NCBI GenBank assembly: GCA_030649835.1
Contig: JAUSES010000013.1
Location: forward strand, 9,317-73,316
From: a bacterium
Lineage (GTDB): Bacteria > Patescibacteriota > Minisyncoccia > Phycocordibacterales > UBA1550
Direction of reading: 5' to 3'
Length of the DNA: 64,000 nt
The notes under the pieces are model-generated. The model was not told the DNA's origin and did not search any database. It saw nothing but the letters and a program-made list of their open reading frames with translations. A program made the position numbers and the translations under genes. Below, piece after piece: positions 24,708-40,719 of this stretch (its first letter is position 1; the number at the start of each line of letters is the position of its first letter).

Positions 24708-24712
24708 ATATT

Positions 24713-24781
24713 GCGGGTTGGTGTAATGGTAGCACGTCGCCCTCTGGAGGCGAAAATTGGGGTTCGAGCCCCTGACCCGCA
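24713..24781 (+). tRNA. tRNA-Gln (anticodon CTG).
   Basis: Acceptor stem gcgggtt/gacccgc. Anticodon stem tcgcc/ggcga with loop cUCUGga. T-loop TTCGAGC. Discriminator A. The exact ends are uncertain by ±2 nt. Confidence 0.7.
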
Positions 24782-24833
24782 GCTAAGTTGAGCTAAGTAT
24801 TGAAGCCCTAGACGCAACAGAATCAACAATATT

Positions 24834-25286: not shown

Positions 25287-25287
25287 T

Positions 25288-25982: not shown

Positions 25983-26264
25983 TTGGTTAACCATTATTTT
26001 ATGCTAAATACACACAAAGTTGGGTTAGTGTTCGGGACAGTTTTTGGAGGAGCGCATGTTCTTTGGGCACTATTTGTTCTTCTAGGCTGGGCTCAGCCAA
26101 TTGTTGATTTTGTTTTTTGGGCTCATATGATGGAGTTTCCACCTATGGTGGCGCCATTTGATTTAATAGCATCGGCAGCACTTATCGTTATCGCCTCAAT
26201 CATCGGCTACATCGCGGGATACGTCGCTTCAAGCGTATGGAACAAAATCCACTCAGTAGCGTAG
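25983..26264 (+). CDS. Hypothetical small membrane protein.
   Basis: 93 aa with three TM helices. Confidence 0.3.
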   Translation: MVNHYFMLNTHKVGLVFGTVFGGAHVLWALFVLLGWAQPIVDFVFWAHMMEFPPMVAPFDLIASAALIVIASIIGYIAGYVASSVWNKIHSVA

Positions 26265-26414
26265 TATTGCAGAACATATGAATAAAAAATAGTGAATTCA
26301 CCCGCCCAAACTTTTAGAAAATATTTGTTTTTAAAATATGCTAATAGAAGTACAGTTTAATTATCAAATTAAAGGACCACTTACTTTCTAAAAGTTAGGT
26401 GGGTAAATAAAACA

Positions 26415-26801
26415 ATGCCAACCACAGACGCAGAATGGGAAGAGAAGCTTTCGCCTGAACAATACCGTGTTCTCCGCAAGAAGGGGACAGAAGCACCTTT
26501 TTCAGGAAAGCTTCTTCACACAGATGCGGAAGGTGTGTATCGCTGTGCGGCATGTGATAACCCCCTCTTTTCCTCGGATACAAAGTTTGATTCAGGCACC
26601 GGATGGCCAAGTTTTGATGAGGCACTTCCCGGAGCGGTGCGTCTTGAGACCGACACCACGCTCGGGCTGGAACGCACCGAAACCCTCTGCGCAAAATGTG
26701 GTTCCCACTTGGGGCACCTTTTTAACGACGGGCCTACCAAAACAGGCAAGAGATATTGTATGAACTCGGTGTGTCTCGATCTCGAAGAGAAAAAGAAGTA
26801 A
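26415..26801 (+). CDS. msrB: Peptide-methionine (R)-S-oxide reductase MsrB.
   Basis: Two CxxC zinc motifs (CAACDNPLF…CAKCGSHLGH) and the catalytic RYCMNS. Confidence 0.85.
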   Translation: MPTTDAEWEEKLSPEQYRVLRKKGTEAPFSGKLLHTDAEGVYRCAACDNPLFSSDTKFDSGTGWPSFDEALPGAVRLETDTTLGLERTETLCAKCGSHLGHLFNDGPTKTGKRYCMNSVCLDLEEKKK

Positions 26802-26928
26802 TACAATGAAGAAATACACGGCTTAAGTTACGAAGCCGTGTATTTTTGTTTTTCCCCCTGCACAGAACCAGCAACTCAGGTACCCCCACTAGAAGGTGAA
26901 TACAATTAATTAAATTTACACATAAATT

Positions 26929-27720
26929 ATGAATTCAATATCAGAAAAAGACGTAATCATATTCGATCTCGACGGGACACTTACAGAAGCAAAGACATTG
27001 ATCGACGCCGAGATGGCGCGACTCATCAGTAAGCTCCTTGATACTCATCAAGTGGCAGTGATGAGCGGTGGTTCACATGATCAAATCAAAAAGCAATTTG
27101 TTGCGGGGCTTGAGGTTGCCGACAAGGCACGAGTGGCGCTCGAGAGAATTCACTTGTTTCCAACATGCGGTTCACAATGCTATCAGTTTGAGAAGAGCGA
27201 GTGGTTGGAGCGCTATGCTGAAAGACTGACAGATAGAGAGAAAAAAGAAATTCAAGAAGGATTCGAAAAAGTTTATAAAAAGATTGGGTATAAACATCCA
27301 GATAAGCTTTATGGAGAAGTTGTCGAGGACAGGGGAACACAGATGACTTTTTCTGCCGTAGGACAAAAGGCACCCATTGAAGAAAAACAAAAATGGATTG
27401 ATAAAAATTATGATAAGAGAGAGGAGGTAGCACAGGAACTACAAAAGTTGCTACCCGAGCATGAGGTTCGTACCGCAGGGCTCACATCGATAGACGTAAC
27501 AAGAAAAGGGATAAATAAATATTATGGAGTAAAGAAAGTGGTAGAGCTTCTGTCTGTTCCGATCGAGCGCATGGTGTTTGTGGGGGATATGCTAATGAAG
27601 GGAGGGAATGATGAACCGGTAATTGAGACGGGAATAGATACAGTGGCTGTAACGGGGCCTGAAGATACTAAGGATCTTCTCATGAAGTGGTTACAATCTC
27701 CCCGAGAGAGATCTAGCTGA
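26929..27720 (+). CDS. HAD-superfamily hydrolase (class IIB-like sugar-phosphatase/PMM-like).
   Basis: Motif I IIFDLDGTLTEA and a C-terminal GDMLMKGGND. Confidence 0.55.
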   Translation: MNSISEKDVIIFDLDGTLTEAKTLIDAEMARLISKLLDTHQVAVMSGGSHDQIKKQFVAGLEVADKARVALERIHLFPTCGSQCYQFEKSEWLERYAERLTDREKKEIQEGFEKVYKKIGYKHPDKLYGEVVEDRGTQMTFSAVGQKAPIEEKQKWIDKNYDKREEVAQELQKLLPEHEVRTAGLTSIDVTRKGINKYYGVKKVVELLSVPIERMVFVGDMLMKGGNDEPVIETGIDTVAVTGPEDTKDLLMKWLQSPRERSS

Positions 27721-27884
27721 TTTTGATATGATCCTTTTTCATCGTGTAAAATAATCACAATGATCTTTCAGGAAATAGTGCGGTCTGTCTTTATGTGCTA
27801 AAGCAGACTGACAAAACAAAAGAAAAGTCCCTACACAAACAATACAAATTTTTAAATGAATATTTTAAAAGATACATTGTTAAA

Positions 27885-28736
27885 CTAGTCCCGCACGATG
27901 ACGACAGTGCCGACATCTGCCCACTGATAGAGCTCTTGCGCACGAGAGGGAGGTAGGTTTACACAGCCGTGCGACCAGGGCTGTCCGAATTTATTATGCC
28001 AGTAGGCACCATGAATAACACCGCCCTCCATCGTGAAGTATAAATTCCAAGGGACACCGGGGAGGTCGTAATACTGATCACTGATGCCGGGCAGAGGTCC
28101 CTGCATATACCTACTTGGTGTTTTCTTATAGACGGAAAAAGTGCCACGAGGTGTGGGAGTGAGCTCAAGGCCGGTTGATGTTGGGCCCTCCATAAATAAA
28201 GTATCACCCTCATATGCATACATTTTTTGATCCGAACGGTCTACAATAATTTTCTTTGTACTTGAGGCGGTTGGGGCGTCAGTTGTGTTTTGATCTCTCT
28301 CGGTGAACAATCGCACATACTCCGCAGACACAAACCAGTCTCCAGAAACACGTTCTGGATATCGCACCCAGTCATCAAACAAAATTTTGTGCCACGCTCG
28401 TCCATCCTGTATTATCGTATCTGCAATTTTTAAAACCACGCCCGTACGCAGGCGCATTACCACAGGATGTTCCTCGCTTGGTCCTGACCGCACATTTACA
28501 CACGAACCTTTGTACTCATTATCACATCCATCAACTACTTCTATATATTGAAAAAGTTTTGGTTCACTGATAGTGGCGGTGACGGTTGAGGTCGCTACCT
28601 CTAAAGGTCGATCTACTACAACAAGAGATGGTGGGGTACTTATCTCCTTCTCTTCTTGCTGTATAGTAGACACACCAAAAATCGCCCCCACTGCAAGAGC
28701 GACAAATACTGTCCTGTACACCACAATCCCATTCAT
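27885..28736 (-). CDS. L,D-transpeptidase (YkuD domain) with an N-terminal TM helix and an SH3-like domain.
   Basis: The catalytic HGCVNLP with a C-terminal YkuD fold pattern. An SH3_3-like middle region. Confidence 0.7.
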   Translation of the reverse strand: MNGIVVYRTVFVALAVGAIFGVSTIQQEEKEISTPPSLVVVDRPLEVATSTVTATISEPKLFQYIEVVDGCDNEYKGSCVNVRSGPSEEHPVVMRLRTGVVLKIADTIIQDGRAWHKILFDDWVRYPERVSGDWFVSAEYVRLFTERDQNTTDAPTASSTKKIIVDRSDQKMYAYEGDTLFMEGPTSTGLELTPTPRGTFSVYKKTPSRYMQGPLPGISDQYYDLPGVPWNLYFTMEGGVIHGAYWHNKFGQPWSHGCVNLPPSRAQELYQWADVGTVVIVRD

Positions 28737-28796
28737 GGGCTCATTCTAGTGGACTTTCAGTAATTACACAACAAAGGTGCCCATTAAGCGCTCTTA

Positions 28797-28832
28797 TGCT
28801 AAAATAACCATAATGATTCGGAACATTATGCG
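28797..28832 (+). repeat. 36-nt repeat (tgctaaaataaccataatgattcggaacattatgcg), copy 1, upstream of the A2M-like gene.
   Basis: Identical to 36883..36918 except for one position. It contains a TAAAAT box 7 nt before an ATG. Confidence 0.8.
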
Positions 28833-28925
28833 CAGGGACTCGCAGAGTTTTTACAGAGGCACAAAATCTAATTTTCCTAAATATCTGTATTATGAAGAAT
28901 AAAGGATATTTGCTATTCTTACTCT

Positions 28926-31900
28926 ATGTTAGATAATAATGATGTGGAAAATGTAAGGCAGGCCCCACATTTTTGGAGCAACCTTAGTAATCGCAATTTT
29001 TTATTCATTATCGGTACCGTCCTTGTTCTGCTTATTGGAGGGATTTTTTATAATTCAGTTGTTTATAGAACCGAGATATCGGAATATGATCTCAAGGCAA
29101 GTGTTGCTGACGCCGCTGGTATTGCACCAAACAGTCATTTTATTTTAAAAACAACAGCTCCGCTAACCACCCAAGTACTTGAAAGGTATATCAAAATAAT
29201 TCCGGCGATTGATTTAAGTATTAAGAAAGTATCAGCACAGGAAAATACATTTGAAATTATTCCTAAAGATGAACTTCAGCCAAATCAAATTTACACCATT
29301 CAGGTAGACAAGGGCCCCTTAGCGAGCCGTGATTTCAGTTGGGCATATCAAGTAAAAGCACTGTTTCAGGTAACATCTTCAATCCCGGGAGATAGAGGCG
29401 TGGATGCTCCTACAAATACAGGGATTGAATTCTACTTTAATCGCGACAATATCATTGCTCCCGATAATTTTATTGAAATAACTCCTGCGGTGTCGGGTAA
29501 GTTTGATGTATCTGAAAATAGAGTTCGGTTTATTCCTAGTAGTCCTTTAGCCGAAAGAACTATTTATACGATAAAAATAAAAGCGGGGCTAAAAGCTAAA
29601 GACACGGATGATGTTTTGAGTAGCGAGAAAATAATTCAATTTCAGACAGCCCAAGCCTATTCCGATAATCGCGGGCCTTCAGCATATTTCTCTCGTCAAT
29701 TTGCTGAATTTAAACCGGGTTCGGATATTCTTTTAGGTGTAGGTGCTTATAACACTTCTTCAGTTGGTGCAACTGTCTACCGGTTTGATTCAGCTCAAGA
29801 ATTTCTTGATTCTGTAACAAAAATTCAAGGCAACACGCCATGGGCTCGTTACTATACAAATATCGATAATCAACTGCCAGAAAATAAAAAAGTGTTTACT
29901 GGTAACCTTCCTCTTGAGACCGCTGACTACTATTCACTGGTGAGAATGCCTCAAGCATTGCAGACTGGATACTATGCGATAGTTATTAACTCGGGTAAAA
30001 GCAAAGATATCTCATGGTTTCAAGTAAACCCAGTGGCTAGTTTTGCGGCGTTTGCGAGTTCAAAATCTTTGGTGTGGTTAAAAGACATTGCTGGTGAAAA
30101 AAGTGTCACAGGAGTTCCTATCCTCTTTAATAATAAACAGATCGGGCAATCTGGCGCGGATGGAGTGGCTCTCTTTGGTACACCCTCAGAACTTATAAGA
30201 AAACCGACTGATTCTTATTATACAAATGAACGAAAATTCTTCATTGCACAGGCCCCTACTGGTGCTCTGGTTATCCCAATGGAAAGTGAATATGGTTACG
30301 CAACTTCTCTCACTCAAAATGATAGCTGGTGGGACTATATTTCACTTAATAAAAATATGTATCTACCGACCGATACACTCCGCTTCTGGGCAATAGAGAA
30401 ACCTCGTAATAGTGGAGCGGCTGGCGAAGAAATCAGCGCTAAGCTTACTAACCCATACTGGAGTGAGACTCAGGACAATGTCGTAACATACGCTGAAACA
30501 AAATTAAAACTTTCCGAATATAATGCTGTTACTGGTGAACTATCGTTTGCCAATCTAAAACCGGGCACATACGACCTAACTTTCCTAAAAGGAAGTGAGG
30601 CTGTTGCAAAACAGACAGTTACCGTAAGTGCATATATAAAACCAGCTTATAAAATTACTGCTACCCCTGATAAGAATACGCTCTTCGCGGGCGATACTGT
30701 GACATTCAAAGTCAAAGCAGAATTTTTTGATGGAACACCCGTTACGAACACTTCGCTTTCTTATTCTGCTTATGGAGCTTTAGGCAAAAATTCCCAAGGC
30801 AGTATAAACCTTAGTTCTCAAGGAGAAGGATCATTTACTGTCACCCCTGAATATACAAACGATCAAACATACTGGCCATCTTACTTAAGTGTTAATGTGA
30901 AACCAACGAAAGCCGAGGAGGGGCAAATAGAAACAAATTCTTCAGTATTTGTATTTGGACCGCATATAAATAATTCAATTAGCCAAAAACAATCAGCCTC
31001 AAACGTAACCTTTGCGGTAAAAACACGCGCAGTTGTTCCCAATAATAATTCTCGAGGGGAACCTTATTGGAATACCGAGAATTACTTGGGTGGCCCCGTG
31101 GTTGGTGCAACAACAAACGTTGATACATCAGAAGTTGTGTATCTCAAAAACCAAACAGGGACTGGTTATGATCCGATAAATAAATTGACCTACCCAATTT
31201 ATAATTATCGAACAGAATATCGCTTCATTTCATCTCAAGCAATAACCGCCGATCAAAACGGTTCTGCGGAATTTCTCTTTACGCCTGAAAACAAAAAAAC
31301 GTATAAATTTATTTTTACGACATACGATAATGTAGGGCGGGCAGTCAAAGACACTCGGTATGTTTATGGTGGCTTGGGGGATGTTGACTATGGTTCAGAA
31401 GACTCCTCCTACTACCTCTTTAATCCAGACAATAACAAGAACTACAAAGTTGGTGATTCAATAAATATCCAGCTACAGACTTATCAGGGAATCATGCCAC
31501 CTGAAGGAACGGGGAACTATATATTTATGACTGTAAATAACGGAGCTATTGAGTATCGGATTCAGGATGCTCCCAAATATAATGCAACATTCCAGAATAA
31601 GGACATTCCGAATATAGGTATTTGGCCGGGATGGTTTGCTGGTGGCCGTTTCCACAACTCGTATCTTCAAAATATTTCTTTTGACGCCAATGAGCGAAGA
31701 TTGAATATAGCAATTACTAAAGATAAGCAGACATATAAGCCAGGGGATAATGTTAGCCTTGATATCAGAGTAACGGATAAAAATAATAATCCAGTTAAAG
31801 CAGAGGTAAATCTTTCTGCCCTGGACGAAGCTGTATTCTCAATTAGACCAGATGAAAAAGATATTATTAACGATCTCTATAAAGATATCTACTCGCAGGT

Positions 31901-33818
31901 TGTAATTCGCACATCAAACATGCCTCCTTATGGTGGCGGTGGTGCTGAAAAAGGTGGGGGTGGAGATGATGCACCTCGCTCAAATATTCAAGAAATGGCA
32001 ATATTTAAATCTGTCACGACAGACGCTGGAGGATTCGCGCATACTGAATTTAAACTTCCTGACAATATAACCTCGTGGCGCTTAACAAGTCAGGCTGTTA
32101 CCAAGGATTTGTTTGCTGGCAAAGACGTGTCCTTCATACCGGTCACCCTACCATTCTTTGTAGATGTGACATTGAATAATACGTATCTTGCAGCTGACCA
32201 GCTCACCCTTCGGTTAAGAACATTCGGAACAGCGACCACCCAAGGAACTGCAAGCTATACAGTAGAAAGCCCTACTCTGCCGTTCAAAAAGATTGATAAA
32301 GCCGGTGGAAACAACATTGATATACCGCTTGGAGTACTGCCCCTTGGAAGTCACCAACTTACCGTGAGAGCAAGTAGTGGCGGATTTTCAGATGCACTAA
32401 CACGACCACTGAACGTTCTCGATAGTTATTTTACAAAAAATACTTCGAACTTTTATGAGGGCATTGGTGGACTGAAAATTAAAAATAATGCTCTAGGTCA
32501 CACTACGCTTACTTTCATCTCGCACGGTAGAGGGCAGTTATATAAAGAGCTTAAATCTTTGAGTTATCAGTGGGGGGTTAGACTTGATCAAAAAGGCACA
32601 CAGCTGATTGCAACAAATCTTCTCAACAACTATTTTGGAGAGAAGAATGAAAAACCAGAATTTCAGGCCGTTAAATATCAAGCTTACTCAGGAGGCTTAC
32701 AGTTACTGCCTTACAGCAGTGATGATCTCGAATTGTCGGCAATTTCTGCTCACCTCTTTGAGGACTCTGTCTTTGATCGATCCTCGCTCAAGAATTATTT
32801 ATCCCAATCATTAAGTGATGCCAAGTCGGATACATCAAGAATAACTCGTGCTTTGTATGGACTAACTGCATTCAAAGAACCAGTACTTACTAAAATTCAA
32901 AAAATTAAAAGTGACCGATCGCTGACGCTTAAGGATAAAGTGTTTGTTGCTCTTGCTCTTGATTCAATCGGAGCAAAAGAAGAAGCGCGTGCTTATTACA
33001 GGCAAACCATAAAGCCCTCAGTTCAAGTCAAATCGTCCTATGCTTACGTTGGTGGACTTAAGGGTGATGACACTATTACCACAACAGCCTTAGTCTCTGC
33101 TCTTACTGCCAGTCTTGAAGAACCAGAATCTGCTCAGCTTGCGTTATATATAAATCAAGATTTCCCCAAGGAAACTCTGAATAATTTCCAGCAACTTCTC
33201 TACATAAAATCTGCACTACCCAAGCTTAGTCCCGAAGAAGTCAGGTTTGCTTATAAGGTTGGATCAAAGAATGAAAATAAAACACTGAAAAATGGTGAGT
33301 CATTCACACTCACACTTTCACCGCAGGAGCTGACATCTTTGGAGCTCTCTGATGTCAAAGGCAAACTAGGTATGGTTGCTTCTTACGAACTAGTGTCTGT
33401 ACCCGAATCAATTTCTAAAGATAAAAATTTGTCACTAAGTCGTTCTTACGAAGTAAATGGCGGTGCCACAAAAGAATTCAATGAAGGAGATTCTGTATTG
33501 GTACGGTTAAATCCTCGATTTAGTGGAAACGCACTCAATGGTTCCTATCAAATTGTTGATTACCTACCAAGCGGACTGCGTCCAATAGATCAAGAATTGG
33601 GCAGATACCATAGCAACTATGATTTACGAGTTGATCCAACAGAAATTAATGATCAAAAGATAACATTCGTAATAGATAAAAATGTAAATCTGCCTGTCTA
33701 CTATTACGCTCGGGTAGTCTCAAAAGGTACTTATAAAGCTGAGCCAGCCATCTTACAGTCACTCCGAAGTTTCGAGAGTGTAACGATATCAAATGAAGAT
33801 ACAATTACCGTTAAATAA
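28926..33818 (+). CDS. Alpha-2-macroglobulin-family (MG-domain) large secreted/membrane-anchored protein without a recognisable thioester motif.
   Basis: 1630 aa with an N-terminal TM helix, repeated MG/Ig-like beta domains, and an A2M-like core (DNITSWRLTSQAV…LPFFVDVTLN, compare DTITEW…QPFFVEL). No CxEQ thioester motif was found by eye. Confidence 0.55.
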   Translation: MLDNNDVENVRQAPHFWSNLSNRNFLFIIGTVLVLLIGGIFYNSVVYRTEISEYDLKASVADAAGIAPNSHFILKTTAPLTTQVLERYIKIIPAIDLSIKKVSAQENTFEIIPKDELQPNQIYTIQVDKGPLASRDFSWAYQVKALFQVTSSIPGDRGVDAPTNTGIEFYFNRDNIIAPDNFIEITPAVSGKFDVSENRVRFIPSSPLAERTIYTIKIKAGLKAKDTDDVLSSEKIIQFQTAQAYSDNRGPSAYFSRQFAEFKPGSDILLGVGAYNTSSVGATVYRFDSAQEFLDSVTKIQGNTPWARYYTNIDNQLPENKKVFTGNLPLETADYYSLVRMPQALQTGYYAIVINSGKSKDISWFQVNPVASFAAFASSKSLVWLKDIAGEKSVTGVPILFNNKQIGQSGADGVALFGTPSELIRKPTDSYYTNERKFFIAQAPTGALVIPMESEYGYATSLTQNDSWWDYISLNKNMYLPTDTLRFWAIEKPRNSGAAGEEISAKLTNPYWSETQDNVVTYAETKLKLSEYNAVTGELSFANLKPGTYDLTFLKGSEAVAKQTVTVSAYIKPAYKITATPDKNTLFAGDTVTFKVKAEFFDGTPVTNTSLSYSAYGALGKNSQGSINLSSQGEGSFTVTPEYTNDQTYWPSYLSVNVKPTKAEEGQIETNSSVFVFGPHINNSISQKQSASNVTFAVKTRAVVPNNNSRGEPYWNTENYLGGPVVGATTNVDTSEVVYLKNQTGTGYDPINKLTYPIYNYRTEYRFISSQAITADQNGSAEFLFTPENKKTYKFIFTTYDNVGRAVKDTRYVYGGLGDVDYGSEDSSYYLFNPDNNKNYKVGDSINIQLQTYQGIMPPEGTGNYIFMTVNNGAIEYRIQDAPKYNATFQNKDIPNIGIWPGWFAGGRFHNSYLQNISFDANERRLNIAITKDKQTYKPGDNVSLDIRVTDKNNNPVKAEVNLSALDEAVFSIRPDEKDIINDLYKDIYSQVVIRTSNMPPYGGGGAEKGGGGDDAPRSNIQEMAIFKSVTTDAGGFAHTEFKLPDNITSWRLTSQAVTKDLFAGKDVSFIPVTLPFFVDVTLNNTYLAADQLTLRLRTFGTATTQGTASYTVESPTLPFKKIDKAGGNNIDIPLGVLPLGSHQLTVRASSGGFSDALTRPLNVLDSYFTKNTSNFYEGIGGLKIKNNALGHTTLTFISHGRGQLYKELKSLSYQWGVRLDQKGTQLIATNLLNNYFGEKNEKPEFQAVKYQAYSGGLQLLPYSSDDLELSAISAHLFEDSVFDRSSLKNYLSQSLSDAKSDTSRITRALYGLTAFKEPVLTKIQKIKSDRSLTLKDKVFVALALDSIGAKEEARAYYRQTIKPSVQVKSSYAYVGGLKGDDTITTTALVSALTASLEEPESAQLALYINQDFPKETLNNFQQLLYIKSALPKLSPEEVRFAYKVGSKNENKTLKNGESFTLTLSPQELTSLELSDVKGKLGMVASYELVSVPESISKDKNLSLSRSYEVNGGATKEFNEGDSVLVRLNPRFSGNALNGSYQIVDYLPSGLRPIDQELGRYHSNYDLRVDPTEINDQKITFVIDKNVNLPVYYYARVVSKGTYKAEPAILQSLRSFESVTISNEDTITVK

Positions 33819-35574
33819 TGCAAAAACAAAGACGGCACTATTGTTCCTATTTGTCTTCATAATATTTGGAGTAGTTTTTGGTTTGACATCGATAAAAAAT
33901 AACAGGACTGAAATTATATACCACCAGTCTCAGTGGAATGAATATGCCCCCGAGATAGAAAGGGCGGTTAAGACAGAACAATTAATAGAGCCACTTAACC
34001 TAGAGCATATCTATGGTGGTGTTGTTTCTCATCACATCCCAACGACCATACCCCAATTAGTTAAGTTCTATAGTCGTCTAAAGCGTACCCAACCTGTTAA
34101 GAACCTCATCGTCATTGGACCCGATCATATTGACGCAGGCAAGGCACCTATAACAGTATCGAATGCTAGTTTTTTCACTGCCTACGGTGAGGTTAGGCCA
34201 ATAGATGGTTTAGCTTCAAAATTACAGGATGCAAAATTAGCCAATATCGACGAATCTCCATTTGACCCAGAACATTCTGTTGGTTCCCAGATATTAGTTA
34301 TTAGTAAGATTTTCCCTGGAGCCAAAGTAACGCCGATTATTCTTCGATCAGATACCACCAAAGATCATGCAGAGGCATTGGGGAAAATGCTCTCAACACT
34401 CATGGATGATGAGACCGTACTTATTGCAAGTGTGGATTTTTCGCACTATCTTCCAACTGATCAAGCAATGCCTCTCGACCAGATTTCTGGAGAAGTAGTA
34501 CGCAATCTTGATCTCGGAGCTCTTTCTCTAGTCACCGCAGACTCTGGGAAATCTACGGCAGTTTTTATGGAAGCGATGAATGGGAAGAAAGCCATTGATA
34601 CAGATGATCTAGTAATTTTAAATACAAACGATCTTATGCAGAACTCGGACTATACAACGGGGTATGTGTTTGGTTTTTGGGGCATTAAGAATAAAGTTCT
34701 AGCACAAAATAATAGTAACGAAACCTCAACGCTTATTTTTGTTGGTGACATCATGCTCTCGCGTGAGATCAATAATATAATGAATAAGAATAGTGATTGG
34801 CGTTACCCATTTCTAAAGACAGCCGATTTTTTGAAAAATGCTGACCTCACCTTTGGAAACCTAGAGGGACCCATTTCAAGAAATGGAGTTAAAGTAGGAA
34901 GTATATATTCTTTTAAGGCAGACCCTCGATCAGTCGAGGGGCTTTTGTACTCTGGTTTCGATGTCTTGTCGGTAGCCAACAATCATATTTGGGATTATGG
35001 CGCTGAAGCGTTTGGAGATACTCTCAAAATCCTTAAAGATAACGGCATAAGTTATATAGGAGGAGGGCTATCCTATGAAGAGGCCCATATGCCTGTTATC
35101 AGGGAGATTAGAGGAGCGAAAATCGCATATCTAGGTTATACAAACTTACTTTCGCTCTCTCTTGGAAACAAGAACTCAAAACCGGCAATTGCTTTTCCGG
35201 ACAAAGATCAAATAATTCTTGATGTGCAAAAGGCAAAAATGCACGCTGATATTGTAATAGTTTCTTTTCACTGGGGCGACGAATATGAAACACAGCACAA
35301 CTCTTTTCAAGAAGAATTAGCGCACGCTACTATTGATGCGGGCGCACACTTAGTAGTGGGTCATCACCCTCATGTCATACAAGAGATAGAAAAATATAAT
35401 GGAGGATATATCGCCTATAGTTTAGGAAATTTTGTCTTCGATCAGAATTTTTCAGAGGACACCAAGTCCGGTCTGGTATTGACGGTTGCTCTAAGGGATA
35501 AAAAAATTGTTGAAATTAGGAAGCACATAATTAAATTTACACCCTCATACCAGCCATTTCTCGTAATTGAGTAG
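33793..35574 (+). CDS. Fusion protein: MEMO1/AmmeMemoRadiSam-B-like domain plus a CapA (poly-gamma-glutamate synthesis, metallophosphatase) domain.
   Basis: N-terminal half GGVVSHHIPT…VIGPDHID…FDPEHSVGSQ is Memo-like. C-terminal half LIFVGDIML…GNLEGP…VANNHIWDYG…HWGDEY…VVGHHPH is CapA/PgsA-like. The start overlaps the A2M gene end by 26 nt. Confidence 0.55.
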   Translation: MKIQLPLNNAKTKTALLFLFVFIIFGVVFGLTSIKNNRTEIIYHQSQWNEYAPEIERAVKTEQLIEPLNLEHIYGGVVSHHIPTTIPQLVKFYSRLKRTQPVKNLIVIGPDHIDAGKAPITVSNASFFTAYGEVRPIDGLASKLQDAKLANIDESPFDPEHSVGSQILVISKIFPGAKVTPIILRSDTTKDHAEALGKMLSTLMDDETVLIASVDFSHYLPTDQAMPLDQISGEVVRNLDLGALSLVTADSGKSTAVFMEAMNGKKAIDTDDLVILNTNDLMQNSDYTTGYVFGFWGIKNKVLAQNNSNETSTLIFVGDIMLSREINNIMNKNSDWRYPFLKTADFLKNADLTFGNLEGPISRNGVKVGSIYSFKADPRSVEGLLYSGFDVLSVANNHIWDYGAEAFGDTLKILKDNGISYIGGGLSYEEAHMPVIREIRGAKIAYLGYTNLLSLSLGNKNSKPAIAFPDKDQIILDVQKAKMHADIVIVSFHWGDEYETQHNSFQEELAHATIDAGAHLVVGHHPHVIQEIEKYNGGYIAYSLGNFVFDQNFSEDTKSGLVLTVALRDKKIVEIRKHIIKFTPSYQPFLVIE

Positions 35575-35613
35575 CCCACACAAGGACTAATATGCTAGAA
35601 TTGCAAGAACATC

Positions 35614-36843
35614 ATGACAAAAACTATAAGACTTTGGTATCTCTATGACTTTGCAAACTCATTTGCTTCGATAGTTTTGATTTTTTACTACCCTCTTATG
35701 CTTGCAGAAAGAGGTGCGAGCAATATTTGGATTGGTGTTTCGGCATCAATTTCCACGGGGATACTTCTCATAGTGTTACCGTATCTCGGCGCGTACTCAG
35801 ACAGAACAGGAAGGAGATTTATTTTTATAAAAATTGCAGCTATTTTAATGGTTGTATCGTTATTTGTGCTTGCATTTCTAATGCAAAATATAGATGTTTT
35901 TAGTGTGCCAGTATTAATAATAGTCTCGTTTTTTTACGTGTTATTTCAGGTTAGCTTTCAGGGTTCATTTGTATTCTACTCGGCAATGTTGCGGGGTATA
36001 ACAACAACTGAAAATAACGCAAAAGTGTCAGGGGTAGGTCTCGGTCTCGGACAATTAGGAAACGCTGTTGCTTTGGGAATAATCGGACCCATCATTGGGT
36101 CTTCACTTGTAATCATCGGACTAAGCGGAAAACCCATTGCCCTATTTCTTGGTGGGGTGATGTTTGCAATAATTTCAATTCCGTTTTTGAAACAGAAAGA
36201 CTTGAAAAATGATATAGAAAAAGTAGGCTTTTCTTACAAGGCCTTTCTTAAAGAAGTATTTTTAGAAAAAAGAATATTCTATTTTTTGATAGGATATTCG
36301 CTACTTGCAGATGCAATTCTTACTTTTCAATTATATTTAACCCTTTATGTAACAAAAGTGTTTGATTTTTCTGACACATTAACAACGTACGCGGGAATAG
36401 TTGCCCTACTTTTCGCGGTCATGGGTGGATTTACGGCAAGCAAGTTTGCATATAAGTTAAGGGATAAAGAAAAGGCATTAAGAGCATCAAGTCTTTTCTA
36501 CGCCGTCGCTTTTTTAATTCTTGCACTCGTCCCAAATACCCCCATTTTAGTATTTTTTGCTCTAGCGTTGGGTGGCATCGCTTTCGGTCTACTGTTTTCG
36601 TTGGCAAGATGCGTTTATTCTGAAATCTCTCCACAAAACAAACAGGGCGAATTTTTTAGTTTGTATACGGTGTTTGAACGAGCCGCATCTATTGTCGGAC
36701 CGTTAGTCTGGCTCCTCACCTTCTATTTACTAAAAGACTTTGGCGAAAATATCCAATACAGGGGATCAATGCTCTTTTTGGTGGTAGTTTGCTTAGCAGG
36801 TTATTATTTCTTAATTAAAAGCAATCGAGCTGTCAAAGTGTAA
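35614..36843 (+). CDS. MFS transporter.
   Basis: 12 predicted TM helices. The motif GAYSDRTGRR sits after TM2. Confidence 0.7.
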   Translation: MTKTIRLWYLYDFANSFASIVLIFYYPLMLAERGASNIWIGVSASISTGILLIVLPYLGAYSDRTGRRFIFIKIAAILMVVSLFVLAFLMQNIDVFSVPVLIIVSFFYVLFQVSFQGSFVFYSAMLRGITTTENNAKVSGVGLGLGQLGNAVALGIIGPIIGSSLVIIGLSGKPIALFLGGVMFAIISIPFLKQKDLKNDIEKVGFSYKAFLKEVFLEKRIFYFLIGYSLLADAILTFQLYLTLYVTKVFDFSDTLTTYAGIVALLFAVMGGFTASKFAYKLRDKEKALRASSLFYAVAFLILALVPNTPILVFFALALGGIAFGLLFSLARCVYSEISPQNKQGEFFSLYTVFERAASIVGPLVWLLTFYLLKDFGENIQYRGSMLFLVVVCLAGYYFLIKSNRAVKV

Positions 36844-36882
36844 CTATTAGCTCCTGTTTCGGTGTGTCAAAAGCTCACAGTG

Positions 36883-36918
36883 TGCTAAAATAACCATAAT
36901 GATTCGGAACGTTATGCG
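36883..36918 (+). repeat. 36-nt repeat, copy 2, spanning the cyoA promoter and start codon.
   Basis: tgctaaaataaccataATGattcggaacgttatgcg. The cyoA protein begins MIRNVMR. Confidence 0.8.
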
Positions 36919-37795
36919 GGGGATATTGGTAATTGCTATTTTGGGACTGGCAACATTTTTATGGGTCTATATGAGTACGCACAATATGGGCGTCTTTAAT
37001 CCTAAGGGGGTTATTGCGCTTGCGGAAAAAGATTTGATTGTTACCACGACACTCCTCATGCTCATTGTGGTCATTCCAGTGTTCGTGCTACTTGCAGCGT
37101 TCATTTGGAGATACAGGGCAACGAACACAAAAGCAACATACACTCCCGACTGGAGCGGGAGTAAGATTTTGGAAACAATCTGGTGGGCTATTCCCACGGC
37201 AATTATTATTGCACTCGGAATCATTACATGGAAAAGCACGCATGCGCTTAACCCGTACACGCCCCTTGTTTCAAATGTTCCGCCGATTACCATTGAGGTC
37301 GTAGCGCTAGACTGGAAGTGGCTTTTTATTTACCCAGAGCAAAATATTGCTACGGTAAATTTTGTGCAGTTTCCCGTGGGGACACCGGTCAATTTTAAAA
37401 TTACGGGTGATGCGCCCATGAATTCATTTTGGATTCCCCAGCTTGGAGGACAAATATATGCGATGGCTGGAATGAACACAAAGCTTCACTTAATGGCTAG
37501 TGAAGCGGGGGAGTACGCCGGGCTCTCGGCCAACTACAGTGGTGCGGGATTTTCTGGAATGAAGTTTACGGCAAAGGCGAGCACGCAGGAAGAGTTTGAC
37601 GCGTGGGTAGAGACAGTGCGTCAATCGCCAATTACTCTAAGTCTCAGTGAATACGATGAGCTTGCACAAAAAAGCCGAAATAATCCAGTAACGTATTATT
37701 CATCTGCCGAAGAAAATTTGTATGGTAAAATAATAATGAAATACATGGAACCAAGAGGAATTTTACCACCAGCTATGCACGAAATGACAAGATAA
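36899..37795 (+). CDS. cyoA: Cytochrome bo3 ubiquinol oxidase subunit II.
   Basis: Two N-terminal TM helices plus a cupredoxin-like domain lacking the CuA ligands. Long stretches (WKWLFIYPEQNIATVNF…MNSFWIPQLGGQIYAMAGMNTKLHL…YSGAGFSGMKF) resemble E. coli CyoA as I recall it from memory. Confidence 0.8.
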   Translation: MIRNVMRGILVIAILGLATFLWVYMSTHNMGVFNPKGVIALAEKDLIVTTTLLMLIVVIPVFVLLAAFIWRYRATNTKATYTPDWSGSKILETIWWAIPTAIIIALGIITWKSTHALNPYTPLVSNVPPITIEVVALDWKWLFIYPEQNIATVNFVQFPVGTPVNFKITGDAPMNSFWIPQLGGQIYAMAGMNTKLHLMASEAGEYAGLSANYSGAGFSGMKFTAKASTQEEFDAWVETVRQSPITLSLSEYDELAQKSRNNPVTYYSSAEENLYGKIIMKYMEPRGILPPAMHEMTR

Positions 37796-37842
37796 TTTTT
37801 TGCTTACGGTATTTAGTGTTTTGATATATAATTCATGAGTAT

Positions 37843-40719
37843 ATGATTTCTTTACGTAATTTTGCCCTGACACTGCTTGTTTTTCTCTTGCCTTTTTCAT
37901 TGACGAATGTTGCTTCTGCGCAAGTGGCAAGTCTTCCATCTGGGACAAGGGTAGATTATCCGGTGGGGGACGGGCCTATTGGTATTGCATTTGATAACAT
38001 AACAAACTCGGTATGGGTAACAAATGCCTACACTAGCACCCTTAGTAAGGTGAATATTTTTGATGGTACCAGAATTGACTATGTTGCTGGAATAAATCCG
38101 CGTGGTATCGCTTTTGACGGTGTTACAAATTCTGTATGGGTGGCAAATTCTGGCTCTAATACTGTTAGCAAGGTAAACATTTACACAGGCATAAAAACTG
38201 ATTATCCGGTCGCAATAGAGCCATTTGATATTGCTTTCGATAATGTTACAAACTCGGTTTGGGTTACAACTGGTGGTACCACAGGGATAATTAGTAAAGT
38301 AGACATTTTTACTGGCGCAAGGGTTGATTTTTATAATTGGTATTATCCGCGAGGTGTTGTCTTTGATAGTGTTACAAATTCTATATGGACAGGAAATTAT
38401 TATGCAGCTATTAGTAAGATAAATATATTTAATGGAACAAGAATAGATTATCCAACAGGATTAGGCAAGGAACAGATGTATGGAATTGCTTTTGATAACT
38501 TTAATAATTCCATCTGGGCAGGGATATCTTCTGCAAGCGTAATTACCAAAGTAAATGTTTTTACCGGAGAAATGACTGAGTATGTTGTTAAAGCAGCTCC
38601 ATATGGCGCCATTTTTGACAACACCACTAATTCAATATGGGTAACAAGTTATTCATTTAATACTGTTAGTAAAATAGATGTTCTAACTGGTACAAGAGTT
38701 GATTATCCAGTAGGCGGAGAGCCCTACGATATCGTTTTTGATAGTGTGACAGATTCTGTATGGGTAACAAATGTTGCCTCCAGCACTATTAGTAAAATAG
38801 CAATTGGAGCACCTCCTCAACATTTGCCCACTCTTTCTACCCTCGTACAACTTAAGTCAGATGGAGTAATGTCAATTGCAGAAGGTAGCGTTACGACTGA
38901 ATCAACCGCGGTTTTTAAGGCAACTCTTTCAGACGTAGATAATGATGTAGCTAAACTTCAAGTAGAATTAAAAGAATTAAGCCAACAGTTTGATGGAACA
39001 AATCTTTTGGAAAGTGGTTTTGTAGCATCAGGGAGCACTGCAACAACATCAAAAGAAATAATTGCCGACGGACAGTATCACTGGCGCGCACGCGCGGTAG
39101 ACGACAATGGAAATATGAGCGATTGGCAGGAGTTTGGTGCTTTTGGGAATATGGATTTTAAGGTGAAGACCGTCCCGCTGTATACGCAGAGACTATCAGA
39201 GTTTCCTTCAAGGACAGCGACTGAAGGTTGGGCAGGATTAGATTATGCAGCTGGGTCCGCCGGTAATTATAGCTGTGGTTCCACTATTGCTGGATGTGGT
39301 TGCGCCATCTCTTCATCTGTAATGATTATGCGCTTTCATGATATTACGGTGGCTGTTGATGGTCTTGAAGTAGAACCTAAAAATATAAATAATTGGCTCA
39401 ATACACATAATGGATACGACAACGGAAATGTTAATTGGAAAAAGGTCTCTGAATATTCTAAAAATCTAAATGGTCTTGCACGATTACAATTTGACAAAAT
39501 AATTCGTTTTAGAGATACGGTTACTCTTGATCAATATCTTGAGACTGGTCGACCTGCTATTCTTTATAGCAAAACCTTCGGTTCCCATTTTTTAGTGGCT
39601 GATGGCAAGCTTGCCAACACCTATACTATCAAAGACCCAGCTCGATATAATACAAAGAACCTTAACGACACAAGGATCGGTTCTTTTATTAAAAATTATA
39701 ACAATAATTTTGACGGCCTTCGATTGTATTCCCCTGTTCTTACTGCTATGAAGGGAATGTCGTTCAGCCTGGGTTCTCCCGCAGAACTTTTAATTATAGA
39801 CCCACTTGGCCGCAGATTAGGGAAAGACCCCACAACAGGGATTCTCTACGAGGAGATTCCAGAAGGTTCGTATTATCAAGAGGGGATAAGCAACGCCGAG
39901 CTAGAAAACCCCCCGCAAGCACACGAAAATAAGAATATTTGGATCCCCAATCCAGAAGTAGGGCAATACATAACGAAAGTTATCGGTACGGATACAGGGT
40001 CATACACCCTTAATTCCTTAGCCTATGACTATAACGGAGATTCTCATTCTCAAACATTGACCGCAACAACGCAACCTGCTTTTGTTGATGAATATCATCT
40101 CAGTGTGTCAACAGTAGGTCAACCGATAAACCTTGACCTCGCGCTCACCTCACAAGGGATTGATGAATGCCCCACTTTGAGTGGTACCAGCCTCGGCTGT
40201 CCTGCAAAGATTGATTTTTTGAGTATGGAAAAGATTAGTAATTCTGCAGGAGCGCCAGAGCTAATCAGTCCTCTCGGAGAAACTCGTTATACCGCCCCAG
40301 TGGTTTCAGGGGAACGGGGCACGACCGAGGTCAAAGCAAAGCTTTATGATGAGGGCAAACTTCTTGCTCTTTTGAATACGCGTTCAGTGTCATCTGACCA
40401 GCTTTGCGCAATTTTTGACGACACCTCAAAAGATAGTGCGTTACTCAATCACCTAACTAAAACAACAGATAAAGACGGCAAATTCTCTTTTGGTGTTTCA
40501 TCTACAACAGTTTCCCCTACGCTGATAGAAAGCGTTAGGGAAACTGTCGCGGGGCAATCAAAAAGAGTTTGTATCGCAGAATCAGTTTCCCCGCGAGATT
40601 TTGTTAACGGCATTGCTTCAAAAGAGGTAAGTATGATTACGCTTACTGTCAGAAATACAAACAACGGTATTTTGGTCAAAAAGACCGCGGGAAGTAACTC
40701 GCAAACGATAGACTACTAA
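37843..40719 (+). CDS. Secreted beta-propeller repeat protein (NHL/YVTN-like repeats x8) with an Ig/Fn3-like region and a C-terminal papain-like (peptidase C39-like) domain.
   Basis: Signal peptide. A roughly 40-aa repeat (GIAFDxVTNSVWVxNxxxxTVSKxNIxTG). Later NYSCGSTIAGCGCAIS (Cys) … GSHFLVADG (His) is typical of the C39-like fold. Confidence 0.5.
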   Translation: MISLRNFALTLLVFLLPFSLTNVASAQVASLPSGTRVDYPVGDGPIGIAFDNITNSVWVTNAYTSTLSKVNIFDGTRIDYVAGINPRGIAFDGVTNSVWVANSGSNTVSKVNIYTGIKTDYPVAIEPFDIAFDNVTNSVWVTTGGTTGIISKVDIFTGARVDFYNWYYPRGVVFDSVTNSIWTGNYYAAISKINIFNGTRIDYPTGLGKEQMYGIAFDNFNNSIWAGISSASVITKVNVFTGEMTEYVVKAAPYGAIFDNTTNSIWVTSYSFNTVSKIDVLTGTRVDYPVGGEPYDIVFDSVTDSVWVTNVASSTISKIAIGAPPQHLPTLSTLVQLKSDGVMSIAEGSVTTESTAVFKATLSDVDNDVAKLQVELKELSQQFDGTNLLESGFVASGSTATTSKEIIADGQYHWRARAVDDNGNMSDWQEFGAFGNMDFKVKTVPLYTQRLSEFPSRTATEGWAGLDYAAGSAGNYSCGSTIAGCGCAISSSVMIMRFHDITVAVDGLEVEPKNINNWLNTHNGYDNGNVNWKKVSEYSKNLNGLARLQFDKIIRFRDTVTLDQYLETGRPAILYSKTFGSHFLVADGKLANTYTIKDPARYNTKNLNDTRIGSFIKNYNNNFDGLRLYSPVLTAMKGMSFSLGSPAELLIIDPLGRRLGKDPTTGILYEEIPEGSYYQEGISNAELENPPQAHENKNIWIPNPEVGQYITKVIGTDTGSYTLNSLAYDYNGDSHSQTLTATTQPAFVDEYHLSVSTVGQPINLDLALTSQGIDECPTLSGTSLGCPAKIDFLSMEKISNSAGAPELISPLGETRYTAPVVSGERGTTEVKAKLYDEGKLLALLNTRSVSSDQLCAIFDDTSKDSALLNHLTKTTDKDGKFSFGVSSTTVSPTLIESVRETVAGQSKRVCIAESVSPRDFVNGIASKEVSMITLTVRNTNNGILVKKTAGSNSQTIDY

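What the first reader, a model, noticed from the sequence alone, without database searches (positions are those of the whole stretch)
28797..36918. The 36-nt segment spanning the cyoA promoter and start codon is duplicated 8 kb upstream, bracketing the A2M / Memo-CapA / MFS block
tgctaaaataaccataATGattcggaac(a/g)ttatgcg occurs at 28797–28832 and 36883–36918. The second copy is the real cyoA start (MIRNVMR…). The first copy heads only a short dead-end ORF, between the L,D-transpeptidase gene and the A2M gene. Direct repeats of a promoter and start region flanking an 8-kb gene block suggest one of two things. Either the block inserted into the cyo leader by recombination or target duplication, or it is a mobile promoter cassette.
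Basis: seen in the sequence. Interest (0 to 1): 0.55.

Follow-up and report, generated by a model that had tools for sequence, protein, structure and literature searches.

The report
Insertion scar duplicating the cyoA start
An 8-kb block of three genes landed inside the first few codons of the cyoA gene in an uncultured Parcubacteria-type bacterium. The gene's 36-base promoter-plus-start segment now sits on both sides of the block, which is an ordinary recombination scar with a tidy functional outcome.

Summary
The repeat is real. It is 36 nt at 28797-28832 and 36883-36918, identical at 35 of 36 positions. These are the only two copies in the window, and none are expected by chance.

The repeat consists of an extended -10 promoter (TGCTAAAAT), 7 nt, the ATG and six more codons. 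This genome often places TGnTAnAAT 6-12 nt before start codons, so the transcripts are probably leaderless or nearly so.

Copy 2 is the true cyoA start: MIRNVMR aligns with MKK(I/V)MR in relatives. Copy 1 opens a 29-codon dead-end ORF. However, the 21 nt to its left match the cyoA upstream region of a Yonathbacteria relative at 16 of 21 positions, while the left flank of copy 2 matches nothing.

Relatives have tRNA-Gln, a short variable stretch and then cyoA, with no A2M block. The A2M-Memo/CapA pair is 83-86% identical in DNA to contigs where it sits in unrelated contexts. The L,D-transpeptidase belongs to the cyo neighbourhood, not to the A2M module.

Best reading: the block (28833-36882) was inserted into the 5' end of cyoA by recombination, leaving att-like direct repeats. 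There is no transposase, no integrase and no terminal inverted repeats. The exact mechanism is unresolved. Copy 1 probably now drives the A2M operon.

The "mobile promoter cassette" idea is not supported. A second scar of the same design, PIF1/NYN at 55906-56770, lies in the same window.

The parts
28797..28832 (+). Copy 1 of the 36-nt repeat. It holds the extended -10 TGCTAAAAT (28797-28805), a 7-nt spacer, the ATG at 28813 and six cyoA-derived codons (MIRNIMR). It is a relic of the original cyoA promoter and start.
36883..36918 (+). Copy 2 of the repeat. It holds the extended -10 (36883-36891), a 7-nt spacer and the functional cyoA ATG at 36899 (MIRNVMR...).
   Evidence: the junction is confirmed in the independent assembly L182
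28776..28796 (+). The 21 nt left of copy 1 (GGTGCCCATTAAGCGCTCTTA). This is the ancestral cyoA promoter-upstream (-35/spacer) segment. It matches the same register upstream of cyoA in L081 at 16 of 21 positions.
28813..28902 (+). A dead-end ORF of 29 codons plus stop. Seven cyoA-derived codons run into unrelated sequence.
   Evidence: read directly from the sequence
28833..36882 (+). The inserted block between the repeats (8,050 bp, GC 39.5% against 44.7-47.7% for cyoA, cyoB and ldt). It has no transposase, no integrase and no terminal inverted repeats.
28911..28919 (+). TGCTATTCT, lying 6 nt before the A2M ATG. It is a weakened counterpart of the TGCTACAAT promoter that precedes A2M in L096 and L092.
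   Evidence: read directly from the sequence
28926..33818 (+). Bacterial alpha-2-macroglobulin-like gene (1630 aa). From 29044 onward it is 83-86% identical in DNA to L092, L096-L101.
33793..35574 (+). Memo + PGA_cap (CapA) fusion gene (593 aa), always paired with the A2M gene in relatives.
35614..36843 (+). UMF1/Atg22-type MFS transporter gene with its own TGCTAGAAT promoter at 35593-35601. It is not linked to A2M or cyoA in any relative examined.
36899..37795 (+). cyoA (298 aa). The true start is M1. The public annotation (274 aa, starting at M25) removes the conserved N-terminal helix.
27885..28736 (-). SH3 + YkuD L,D-transpeptidase gene. It is a backbone neighbour: 53% identical to the YkuD gene upstream of cyoA in L087, and only about 23% identical to the A2M-linked YkuD/S11 proteins.
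24712..24783 (+). tRNA-Gln, the left edge of the variable stretch that ends at cyoA. Relatives have tRNA-Gln only 0.13-2 kb before cyoA.

Best explanation
The repeat is a recombination scar. In the ancestor, the L,D-transpeptidase gene (minus strand) and cyoA (plus strand) were separated by about 76 nt. That spacer held the cyoA promoter, an extended -10 (TGCTAAAAT) 7 nt before the ATG, which probably gives a leaderless or nearly leaderless mRNA. An 8.05-kb piece of DNA carrying A2M-Memo/CapA and an MFS gene was joined in just after codon 7 of cyoA. The 36 nt running from the first base of the extended -10 to codon 7 ended up on both sides of it. Copy 1 keeps the old upstream promoter context but now reads into a 29-codon dead end and then the A2M operon, so it probably serves as that operon's promoter. 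Copy 2 supplies cyoA with a minimal promoter and an intact start, so cyoA survived the insertion. What is shown: the repeat itself; which flank of each copy is cyoA-like; the absence of the block at cyoA in relatives; the presence of the A2M pair in other contexts; and the absence of transposase, integrase and terminal inverted repeats. What is inferred: the direction of the event, the promoter activity of both copies, and the mechanism. The likeliest mechanisms are a single crossover of a circular intermediate carrying the 36-nt segment (Campbell-type, att-like), or homology-anchored illegitimate recombination of DNA from a close relative that already carried the block next to cyoA. Replication template switching that returned at the 9-nt promoter consensus is a third option.
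For: (1) The repeat is exact at the stated coordinates, with 0 expected by chance.
(2) CyoA homologues at 65-75% identity begin MKK(I/V)MRAIL..., which aligns with the window's MIRNVMRGIL..., so the coding part of the repeat is native cyoA sequence.
(3) TGCTAAAAT or TGGTAAAAT lies 7-13 nt before the cyoA ATG in L081, L089, L084 and L102.
(4) Within the window, 12 of 23 plus-strand TGnTAnAAT sites lie 6-12 nt before the start of an ORF of at least 50 aa, against a background of 10.9% (p about 1e-6).
(5) In fixed register, the 21 nt left of copy 1 match L081's cyoA upstream at 16 of 21 and L087's at 11 of 21. The left flank of copy 2 scores 4-8 of 21, about chance level. The 16 of 21 match is the single best of 179,154 positions scanned.
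(6) Backbone synteny CTP synthase - Gmad2 - PDDEXK_1 - tRNA-Gln - [variable] - cyoA holds in L081, L089 and L102. L102 has only about 130 nt between tRNA-Gln and the cyoA promoter.
(7) DNA from 29044 to 35564 (A2M-Memo/CapA) is 83-86% identical to L092 and L096-L101 and 76% to L093. There it is flanked by an HTH gene, SecDF, YkuD/S11 or ribosomal genes and never by cyo. Backbone genes are only 72-77% identical to their best relatives.
(8) The window's Ldt is 53% identical over its full length to the YkuD gene upstream of cyoA in L087, and about 23% to the A2M-linked YkuD/S11 proteins.
(9) The block has 39.5% GC, against 44.7-47.7% for cyoA, cyoB and ldt.
(10) The A2M gene's own -10 is TGCTATTCT here but TGCTACAAT in L096 and L092, so copy 1 is the only good extended -10 in the 189-nt spacer.
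(11) A second scar of the same design sits in this window: a relic PIF1-helicase start, a NYN gene, then the intact start.
Against: No relative shows the predicted empty site with ldt directly beside cyoA. The closest CyoA relative is only 75% identical, so the event cannot be dated or polarised from a sister strain. No recombinase is present in or beside the block, and a 36-bp homology is short for RecA-dependent crossover. The MFS gene is not linked to A2M in any relative, so the block may have been built in more than one step. The left edge of the repeat coincides exactly with the first base of the extended -10, which needs either selection or a microhomology argument to explain. Promoter activity and leaderless initiation are inferred from sequence only. 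The copy 1 junction rests on a single assembly. The higher identity of the A2M pair to other contigs could simply mean that closer relatives lacking cyo exist, because no shared backbone gene was available to calibrate divergence.
Confidence: 0.65

Rival explanations
1. Local promoter copy. The A2M-Memo/CapA-MFS block already lay upstream of cyoA. A short patch of 36 to about 57 nt from the cyoA promoter and start was then copied 8 kb upstream, for example as templated repair of a break or deletion that removed the HTH gene normally found before A2M. That gave the A2M operon a new promoter.
For: Relatives carry a small HTH_3 gene or a canonical TGCTACAAT promoter directly before A2M. Both are missing or degraded in the window, so something did happen at that spot. 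Copy 1 is the only strong extended -10 in the spacer.
Against: The 21 nt left of copy 1 resemble the cyoA upstream of L081 (16 of 21), while the left flank of copy 2 does not (5 of 21). The two flanks differ from each other (5 of 21). A patch copied from copy 2's locus should carry copy 2's flank. Rescuing this model needs a later replacement of copy 2's flank that ended exactly at the repeat boundary. The Ldt gene belongs to the cyo neighbourhood, not to the A2M module.
Confidence: 0.15
2. A shared regulatory module or mobile promoter cassette. The 36-mer would be a functional unit, such as a promoter with an operator or a leader peptide, kept identical by selection or spread as a dispersed element in order to co-regulate the A2M operon and cyo.
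For: The segment is a complete minimal promoter plus start of the type common in this genome. Both copies face operons on the same strand.
Against: There are only two copies in 64 kb. A degenerate version of the pattern has no match in the metagenome or viral collections. Of the 36 nt, 20 are cyoA coding sequence that aligns with the CyoA N-terminus of relatives. The copy 1 peptide runs into unrelated sequence and stops. The RNA from copy 1 to the A2M start has no unusual structure (z = -0.21). Relatives' A2M genes use different upstream sequences.
Confidence: 0.05
3. Classical transposon or integrase-borne island. The repeats would be a target-site duplication, or attL/attR made by an element-encoded enzyme.
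For: Direct repeats flank a block that is absent from this site in relatives, and the target gene is reconstituted. This resembles islands that insert into gene ends. The window also carries part-copies of tRNA 3' ends.
Against: All three genes in the block are identified, and none is a transposase or recombinase. There are no terminal inverted repeats at 28833 or 36882. From my own knowledge, 36 bp is far longer than known transposase target duplications. No integrase-sized ORF lies between tRNA-Gln and cyoA.
Confidence: 0.1
4. Assembly artefact. The copy 1 junction would be a chimeric join made through the shared 36-mer.
For: The window comes from a metagenome-assembled genome, and the copy 1 junction is not covered by the independent contig L182.
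Against: The two copies differ at one base. L182 confirms the U2 / 36-mer / cyoA path at 100% identity over 12.5 kb. A join from the 36-mer into CAGGGAC... requires that this adjacency exists in real reads. Modern assemblers end with k-mers longer than 36 (my own knowledge).
Confidence: 0.03

Closest known systems
attL/attR direct repeats of genomic islands and prophages that integrate into the end of a gene and carry a replacement end (for example lambdoid phage 21 and e14 at icd, or tRNA-targeting islands; cited from my own knowledge)
   Same: A foreign block is flanked by short direct repeats that are part of the target gene. The target gene stays intact because one repeat copy rebuilds its end. 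The site is empty in relatives.
   Different: No integrase or excisionase lies in or near the block. The rebuilt end is the 5' end together with the promoter, not a 3' end. The cargo is three housekeeping-type envelope genes with no mobility genes.
Campbell-type insertion-duplication (single crossover of a circular DNA that carries a short homologous segment)
   Same: It predicts exactly this product: homologous segment, insert, homologous segment, with sharp repeat edges and near-identical copies.
   Different: The homology here is only 36 bp, close to the lower limit for RecA-dependent exchange (my own knowledge). No circular form has been observed.
Homology-facilitated illegitimate recombination during natural transformation (de Vries and Wackernagel type; my own knowledge)
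   Same: One end of the incoming DNA is anchored by homology (cyoA), and the other is joined illegitimately. This needs no element-encoded enzymes. It would explain why the repeat's left edge is where the two lineages' upstream sequences diverge.
   Different: It usually deletes recipient DNA rather than duplicating it. It requires a donor strain that already had the block next to cyoA, and no such strain has been found.
Transposon target-site duplication
   Same: Direct repeats of target sequence flank an insertion.
   Different: The repeat is 36 bp, against the usual 2-15 bp. There is no transposase and there are no inverted terminal repeats.

Membership tests
Transposable element with target-site duplication | Transposase gene inside the element | tested here: not met
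   Pfam identifies the three block genes as A2M-like, Memo+PGA_cap and MFS. There is no other ORF of 80 aa or more in 28833-36882.
Transposable element with target-site duplication | Terminal inverted repeats at the element ends | tested here: not met
   The inverted-repeat search of 24600-45600 found no pair with arms at about 28833 and about 36882.
Transposable element with target-site duplication | Short target duplication (typically 2-15 bp) | tested here: not met
   The repeat is 36 bp. The typical range is from my own knowledge.
Integrase-mediated genomic island (att-flanked) | Direct repeats that are part of the target gene flank the insert, and the target gene is rebuilt | tested here: met
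   Copy 1 has the cyoA-like upstream flank, and copy 2 is followed by intact cyoA.
Integrase-mediated genomic island (att-flanked) | Tyrosine or serine recombinase gene at one end of the island | tested here: not met
   None is present in the block. No recombinase-sized unexplained ORF lies between tRNA-Gln and cyoA. The rest of the genome was not available.
Integrase-mediated genomic island (att-flanked) | Empty site in relatives | tested here: inconclusive
   Relatives have cyoA without the block (L084, L089, L090, L102). However, they are at most 75% identical in CyoA, and none has ldt directly beside cyoA.
Dispersed repeat or mobile promoter element | Many copies spread over the genome or across genomes | tested here: not met
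   There are two copies in 64 kb allowing up to 3 mismatches. A degenerate pattern gave 0 matches in metagenome contigs and viral contigs. The remaining roughly 15 kb of the contig and the rest of the genome were not searched.
Sigma-70 extended -10 promoter giving a leaderless mRNA | TGn immediately before a TAnAAT hexamer, about 6-8 nt before the start codon | tested here: met
   TGCTAAAAT, 7 nt, ATG in both copies. The same design occurs at 12 of 23 plus-strand TGnTAnAAT sites.
Sigma-70 extended -10 promoter giving a leaderless mRNA | Transcription start mapped at or next to the A of the ATG | not testable with these tools
   No transcript data are available.

The most novel reading that the evidence does not exclude
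The scar may be one product of a recurrent, enzyme-independent route of gene gain in these reduced CPR genomes. In this route, DNA taken up from relatives would be spliced into the first codons of a resident gene, with the gene's start, and sometimes its minimal leaderless promoter, duplicated. The resident gene survives, and the newcomer inherits a ready-made promoter. Three observations in the same 64 kb and its relatives are compatible with this: the second scar (PIF1/NYN), the variable cassettes between cyoA and cyoB, and the 5'-end swapping seen at the A2M gene.
Probability: 0.12. Interest if true: 0.55.

Novelty: new member of a known kind. Interest (0 to 1): 0.3.

Why it matters
This is a clean, datable example of how a very small CPR genome gained an 8-kb envelope-defence block without losing a respiratory gene. 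The duplicated piece is exactly the smallest unit that rebuilds cyoA's promoter and start. As a side effect, it places the incoming A2M operon behind the old cyoA promoter, so the two may now be co-expressed. The region between tRNA-Gln and cyoA, and the cyo operon itself, also emerge as hot spots of gene turnover in this lineage. Finally, the public CyoA gene model should be corrected. Beyond that, this is an ordinary recombination scar and not a new kind of element.

Tried and rejected
- A scan of genome contigs with CyoA gave a best hit of 61% identity. The source genome and its close relatives are not in that collection.
- A metagenome scan for a degenerate 36-mer found nothing.
- Viral scans for the 36-mer and for Memo/CapA found nothing.
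- A look-up of the public 274-aa CyoA found no record.
- BLAST searches with short words, using the 39 nt left of copy 2, the 211 nt right of copy 1 and the 60 nt left of copy 1, against all fetched loci gave only chance-level hits. The donor context of the block ends therefore remains unknown.
- I tried to calibrate backbone divergence against the A2M-bearing contigs with tblastx, but no other shared genes exist. Horizontal transfer of the A2M pair therefore cannot be separated from "closer relatives that lack cyo".
- No repeats were found flanking the insertions upstream of cyoA in L087, L081, L089 or L090, and none flank the cyoA-cyoB insert in the window.
- The overall density of short direct repeats in the CPR loci is not higher than in unrelated loci (2.6 against 2.7 per 100 kb), so there is no lineage-wide excess.
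- The RNA from copy 1 to the A2M start is unremarkable when folded.
- Rfam searches gave only tRNAs.
Full report
**Observation**

The 36-mer TGCTAAAATAACCATAATGATTCGGAAC(A/G)TTATGCG is present at 28797-28832 and 36883-36918 on the + strand. It has one difference, A at 28825 versus G at 36911. There are no other matches on either strand at up to 3 mismatches, and none in 100 shuffles. Similarity ends abruptly on both sides: the 30 nt to the left of the two copies agree at only 6 of 30 positions.

An independent Logan assembly of run SRR13727527 (L182, 12,560 nt) is 100% identical to window 31851-44410. The MFS / copy 2 / cyoA junction is therefore reproduced. The copy 1 junction is covered only by the window itself.

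**Gene map**

| Feature | Coordinates | Strand |
|---|---|---|
| PDDEXK_1 nuclease | 23018-23905 | + |
| LAGLIDADG-like ORF | 23913-24707 | + |
| tRNA-Gln | 24712-24783 | + |
| SET-domain gene and several small ORFs | from 24834 | + |
| HAD/PMM | 26929-27720 | + |
| SH3+YkuD L,D-transpeptidase (ldt) | 27885-28736 | - |
| Copy 1 | 28797-28832 | + |
| A2M-like gene | 28926-33818 | + |
| Memo+PGA_cap fusion | 33793-35574 | + |
| MFS transporter | 35614-36843 | + |
| Copy 2 | 36883-36918 | + |
| cyoA | 36899-37795 | + |
| Three unrelated genes | 37843-42852 | + |
| cyoB | 42902-44863 | + |
| cyoC | 44838-45491 | + |
| UbiA/cyoE | 47443-48297 | + |

The organism is a CPR/Patescibacteria bacterium of the Parcubacteria type. 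The CyoA protein is identical over 92% of its length to an NCBI "MAG: bacterium" protein on a 79,354-nt contig. Its next relatives (65-75% identity) are labelled Yonathbacteria, Paceibacteria or Minisyncoccia. cyo operons in CPR bacteria are already documented (PMC4508563, PMC8407418).

**What the 36-mer is**

Relatives' CyoA proteins begin MKK(I/V)MRAIL(V)VA..., which aligns with the window's MIRNVMRGILVIA.... Copy 2 therefore holds the true start. The public 274-aa model, which starts at M25, is too short.

Upstream of cyoA, relatives carry TGCTAAAAT (L081, L089, L102) or TGGTAAAAT (L084) 10-13 nt before the ATG, against 7 nt in the window. This is an extended -10 promoter (TGn + TAnAAT).

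Within the window, 23 plus-strand sites match TGnTAnAAT. Twelve of them lie 6-12 nt before the start of an ORF of at least 50 aa, against a background of 10.9% (p about 1e-6). Seven lie before the first possible start of the ORF, against a background of 1.2%. The usual design in this genome is thus an extended -10 with the start codon at about the expected transcription start, which implies leaderless or nearly leaderless mRNAs. This is an inference, because no transcript data are available.

The 36-mer is exactly one such unit plus six further codons.

**Which copy sits in the original place**

I compared the sequence left of the -10 in fixed register:
- The 21 nt left of copy 1 (GGTGCCCATTAAGCGCTCTTA) match the L081 (Yonathbacteria) cyoA upstream at 16 of 21 and the L087 upstream at 11 of 21.
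- The left flank of copy 2 scores 4-8 of 21 against every relative, which is about chance level.
- Sliding the copy 1 21-mer over 179,154 positions of six cyo-bearing loci, the L081 site is the only one that reaches 16.
- To the right, copy 2 continues into conserved cyoA, whereas copy 1 continues into sequence with no detectable relative.

So the left flank of copy 1 and the right flank of copy 2 are the two halves of one ancestral cyoA 5' region. That is the expected signature of an insertion flanked by duplicated target sequence.

**Comparative context**

The backbone order CTP synthase, Gmad2, PDDEXK_1, tRNA-Gln, [variable], cyoA is shared with L081, L089 and L102. In L102 the cyoA promoter follows tRNA-Gln after only about 130 nt. 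In the window that interval is 12.1 kb. None of the six cyo-bearing relatives has A2M, Memo/CapA or MFS near cyoA.

Conversely, the DNA from 29044 to about 35564 (A2M core plus Memo/CapA) is 86% identical to L097-L100, 85% to L096, 83% to L092 and L101, and 76% to L093. In those loci the pair is preceded by a small HTH_3 gene, a bPH_2 gene or a tRNA. It is followed by SecDF, a YkuD/Peptidase_S11 gene or others. By contrast, the window's backbone genes reach only 72-77% DNA identity with their best relatives. I could not calibrate this difference, because the A2M-bearing contigs share no other gene with the window.

The window's L,D-transpeptidase is 53% identical over its full length to the YkuD gene that lies upstream of cyoA in L087. 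It is only about 23% identical to the YkuD/S11 proteins linked to A2M. It therefore belongs to the resident neighbourhood and not to the incoming module.

The MFS gene has its own TGCTAGAAT promoter. It has relatives at 69-80% identity but is not linked to A2M or cyoA in any locus examined.

The block has lower G+C (39.5%) than ldt, cyoA and cyoB (44.7-47.7%).

**Mechanism**

The block contains no transposase or recombinase and has no terminal inverted repeats. A 36-bp repeat is far longer than transposase target duplications (my own knowledge). The product has the form of an att-flanked island or of a Campbell-type insertion-duplication.

Three routes give this structure:
- (a) A single crossover of a circular DNA that carried the 36-nt segment.
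- (b) Homology-anchored illegitimate recombination of DNA from a close relative that already had the block next to cyoA. In that case the repeat's left edge marks where the donor and recipient upstream sequences diverge, and its right edge marks the illegitimate join.
- (c) Replication template switching that returned to the chromosome at the 9-nt promoter consensus TGCTAAAAT.

Route (c), or a microhomology variant of (b), would explain why the repeat starts exactly at the first base of the extended -10. It would also explain why the left flank of copy 2 happens to offer a reasonable -35 (GTGTCA, 16-nt spacer). I could not discriminate among these routes. Selection also matters, because only events that left cyoA with a promoter and a start would persist.

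**Consequence**

The A2M gene's own -10 is TGCTATTCT here, whereas L096 and L092 have TGCTACAAT at the homologous place. The HTH gene found before A2M in L094, L095 and L097-L100 is absent. Copy 1 is the only good extended -10 in the 189-nt ldt-A2M spacer. No terminator-like site on the + strand and no unusual RNA structure lie between it and the A2M start. Copy 1 therefore probably drives a transcript that begins with the 29-codon relic ORF and continues into A2M-Memo/CapA. This is inferred and not shown.

**Rivals**

- *Local templated copy of the cyoA promoter placed before A2M.* This is disfavoured because copy 1's flank resembles relatives' cyoA upstream while copy 2's flank does not.
- *Dispersed or mobile promoter cassette.* This is disfavoured because there are only two copies, because there are no matches in the metagenome or viral collections, and because the repeat includes 20 nt of genuine cyoA coding sequence.
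- *Assembly artefact.* This is unlikely given the base difference between the copies and the confirmation by L182.

**A second case in the same window**

A second scar of the same design exists at 55906-55971 and 56705-56770. It matches at 60 of 66 positions, or 55 of 57 from 3 nt before the ATG.
- The downstream copy is the real start of a PIF1-like helicase (556 aa).
- The upstream copy is a relic of 18 codons that runs into a dead end.
- Between them lie a hairpin, a TGCTACAAT promoter and a NYN-domain gene.
- The two coding differences are both synonymous third-position changes. This is suggestive, with little statistical power, that the two copies diverged as functional alleles in different lineages before being joined.

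This favours recombination with DNA from relatives as a general source of such scars. However, the overall density of short direct repeats here is not unusual.

**Verdict**

The feature is a recombination scar of a known general kind, with no new machinery implied. Its interest lies in the tidy functional outcome and in what it shows about gene turnover around the cyo operon of CPR bacteria.

Noticed in passing
window 55906-55971 and 56705-56770 (insert 55972-56704): A second scar of the form relic start / insert / intact start. A 66-nt direct repeat (60 of 66 positions) duplicates the start of a PIF1-like helicase gene (ATG 56717, 556 aa). The upstream copy (ATG 55918) is a dead end. Between the copies lie a hairpin, a TGCTACAAT promoter and a NYN-domain gene (56127-56705). 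Both coding differences are synonymous.
   Followed up: partly
window 37843-42852; L081 10918-15530; L087 10911-15054: cyoA and cyoB are separated by variable cassettes that encode large, apparently secreted proteins plus small partners. Here these are NHL/Big_13 (958 aa), a 359-aa protein and a PDZ protein. L081 has a NosD/beta-helix protein (1075 aa), a 357-aa protein and a 106-aa protein. L087 has an LCAT-like protein (1239 aa) and a 144-aa protein. L084, L089 and L090 have cyoA directly followed by cyoB. Parts of the window and L081 cassettes are homologous (38938-39250 and 41717-41839). No flanking repeats were found. The cassette has 39.1% GC.
   Followed up: partly
window 14573-14720, 14858-15056, 15287-15459; L089 2309-2405, 2527-2750, 3013-3140: Each of several tRNA genes (Met, Asp, Thr-GGT) is followed by a hairpin, then a GC-rich stretch of about 90-220 nt, then a second copy of the last 19-29 nt of that tRNA. 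A core of about 62 nt (CCGCGGGCCGCAGCACYCGAAGAGRGTGCGTAGGTTTCGAGCTCACYAGAGCGAGAGGC) follows tRNA-Met in the window but tRNA-Thr(GGT) in L089. In each case it ends with the 3' end of the local tRNA, and it shows a compensatory change in its hairpin. There is no Rfam match. It may be a small tRNA-targeting insertion element or an unknown RNA.
   Followed up: partly
window 24784-36898; L081 7835-8075; L102 about 1560-1760: The interval between tRNA-Gln and cyoA is a variable hot spot. It is 12.1 kb here, about 2 kb in L081 (Fic and a small ORF), 0.7 kb in L089 and about 0.13 kb in L102. L081 and L102 carry part-copies of tRNA-Gln beside the gene.
   Followed up: partly
window, whole; for example 4921, 13797, 18137, 23991, 25696, 35593, 36883, 48287, 56110, 58595, 62834: The genome-wide promoter design is TGnTAnAAT placed 6-12 nt before start codons (12 of 23 plus-strand sites, p about 1e-6). 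This implies widespread leaderless or near-leaderless mRNAs in this CPR bacterium.
   Followed up: partly
window 36899-36971: The public gene model for CyoA (274 aa, starting at M25) omits the conserved N-terminal segment MIRNVMRGILVIAILGLATFLWVY, which aligns with all close homologues. The start should be 36899.
   Followed up: yes
L096 9975-10060 versus L097 245-320; window 28905-29043: The A2M-Memo/CapA pair is 83-86% identical in DNA across at least five different genomic contexts, but its first roughly 40 codons and its promoter differ in each. In L096 the A2M gene begins with the promoter and first roughly 13 codons of what in L097 is the separate upstream HTH_3 gene (MNENNIQQEKIKK versus MNASNIQEKIKK). 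That is a deletion fusing one gene's start to the next gene.
   Followed up: partly
window 23913-24707: A LAGLIDADG-like ORF sits in the short gap between PDDEXK_1 and tRNA-Gln. That gap is empty in L089 and L102, and in L081 it holds an SLT gene on the minus strand. It may be a free-standing homing endonuclease gene. A second ORF at 13804-14493, between two tRNA-Met genes, was not examined.
   Followed up: no
window 5739-5804 and 7042-7107; 6942-7043: Neighbouring genes that look like pilin paralogues share N-terminal sequence with runs of 6-7-nt repeats (ATTCTCC/ATTCCCC). An exact 26-nt inverted copy lies at 7018-7043.
   Followed up: no
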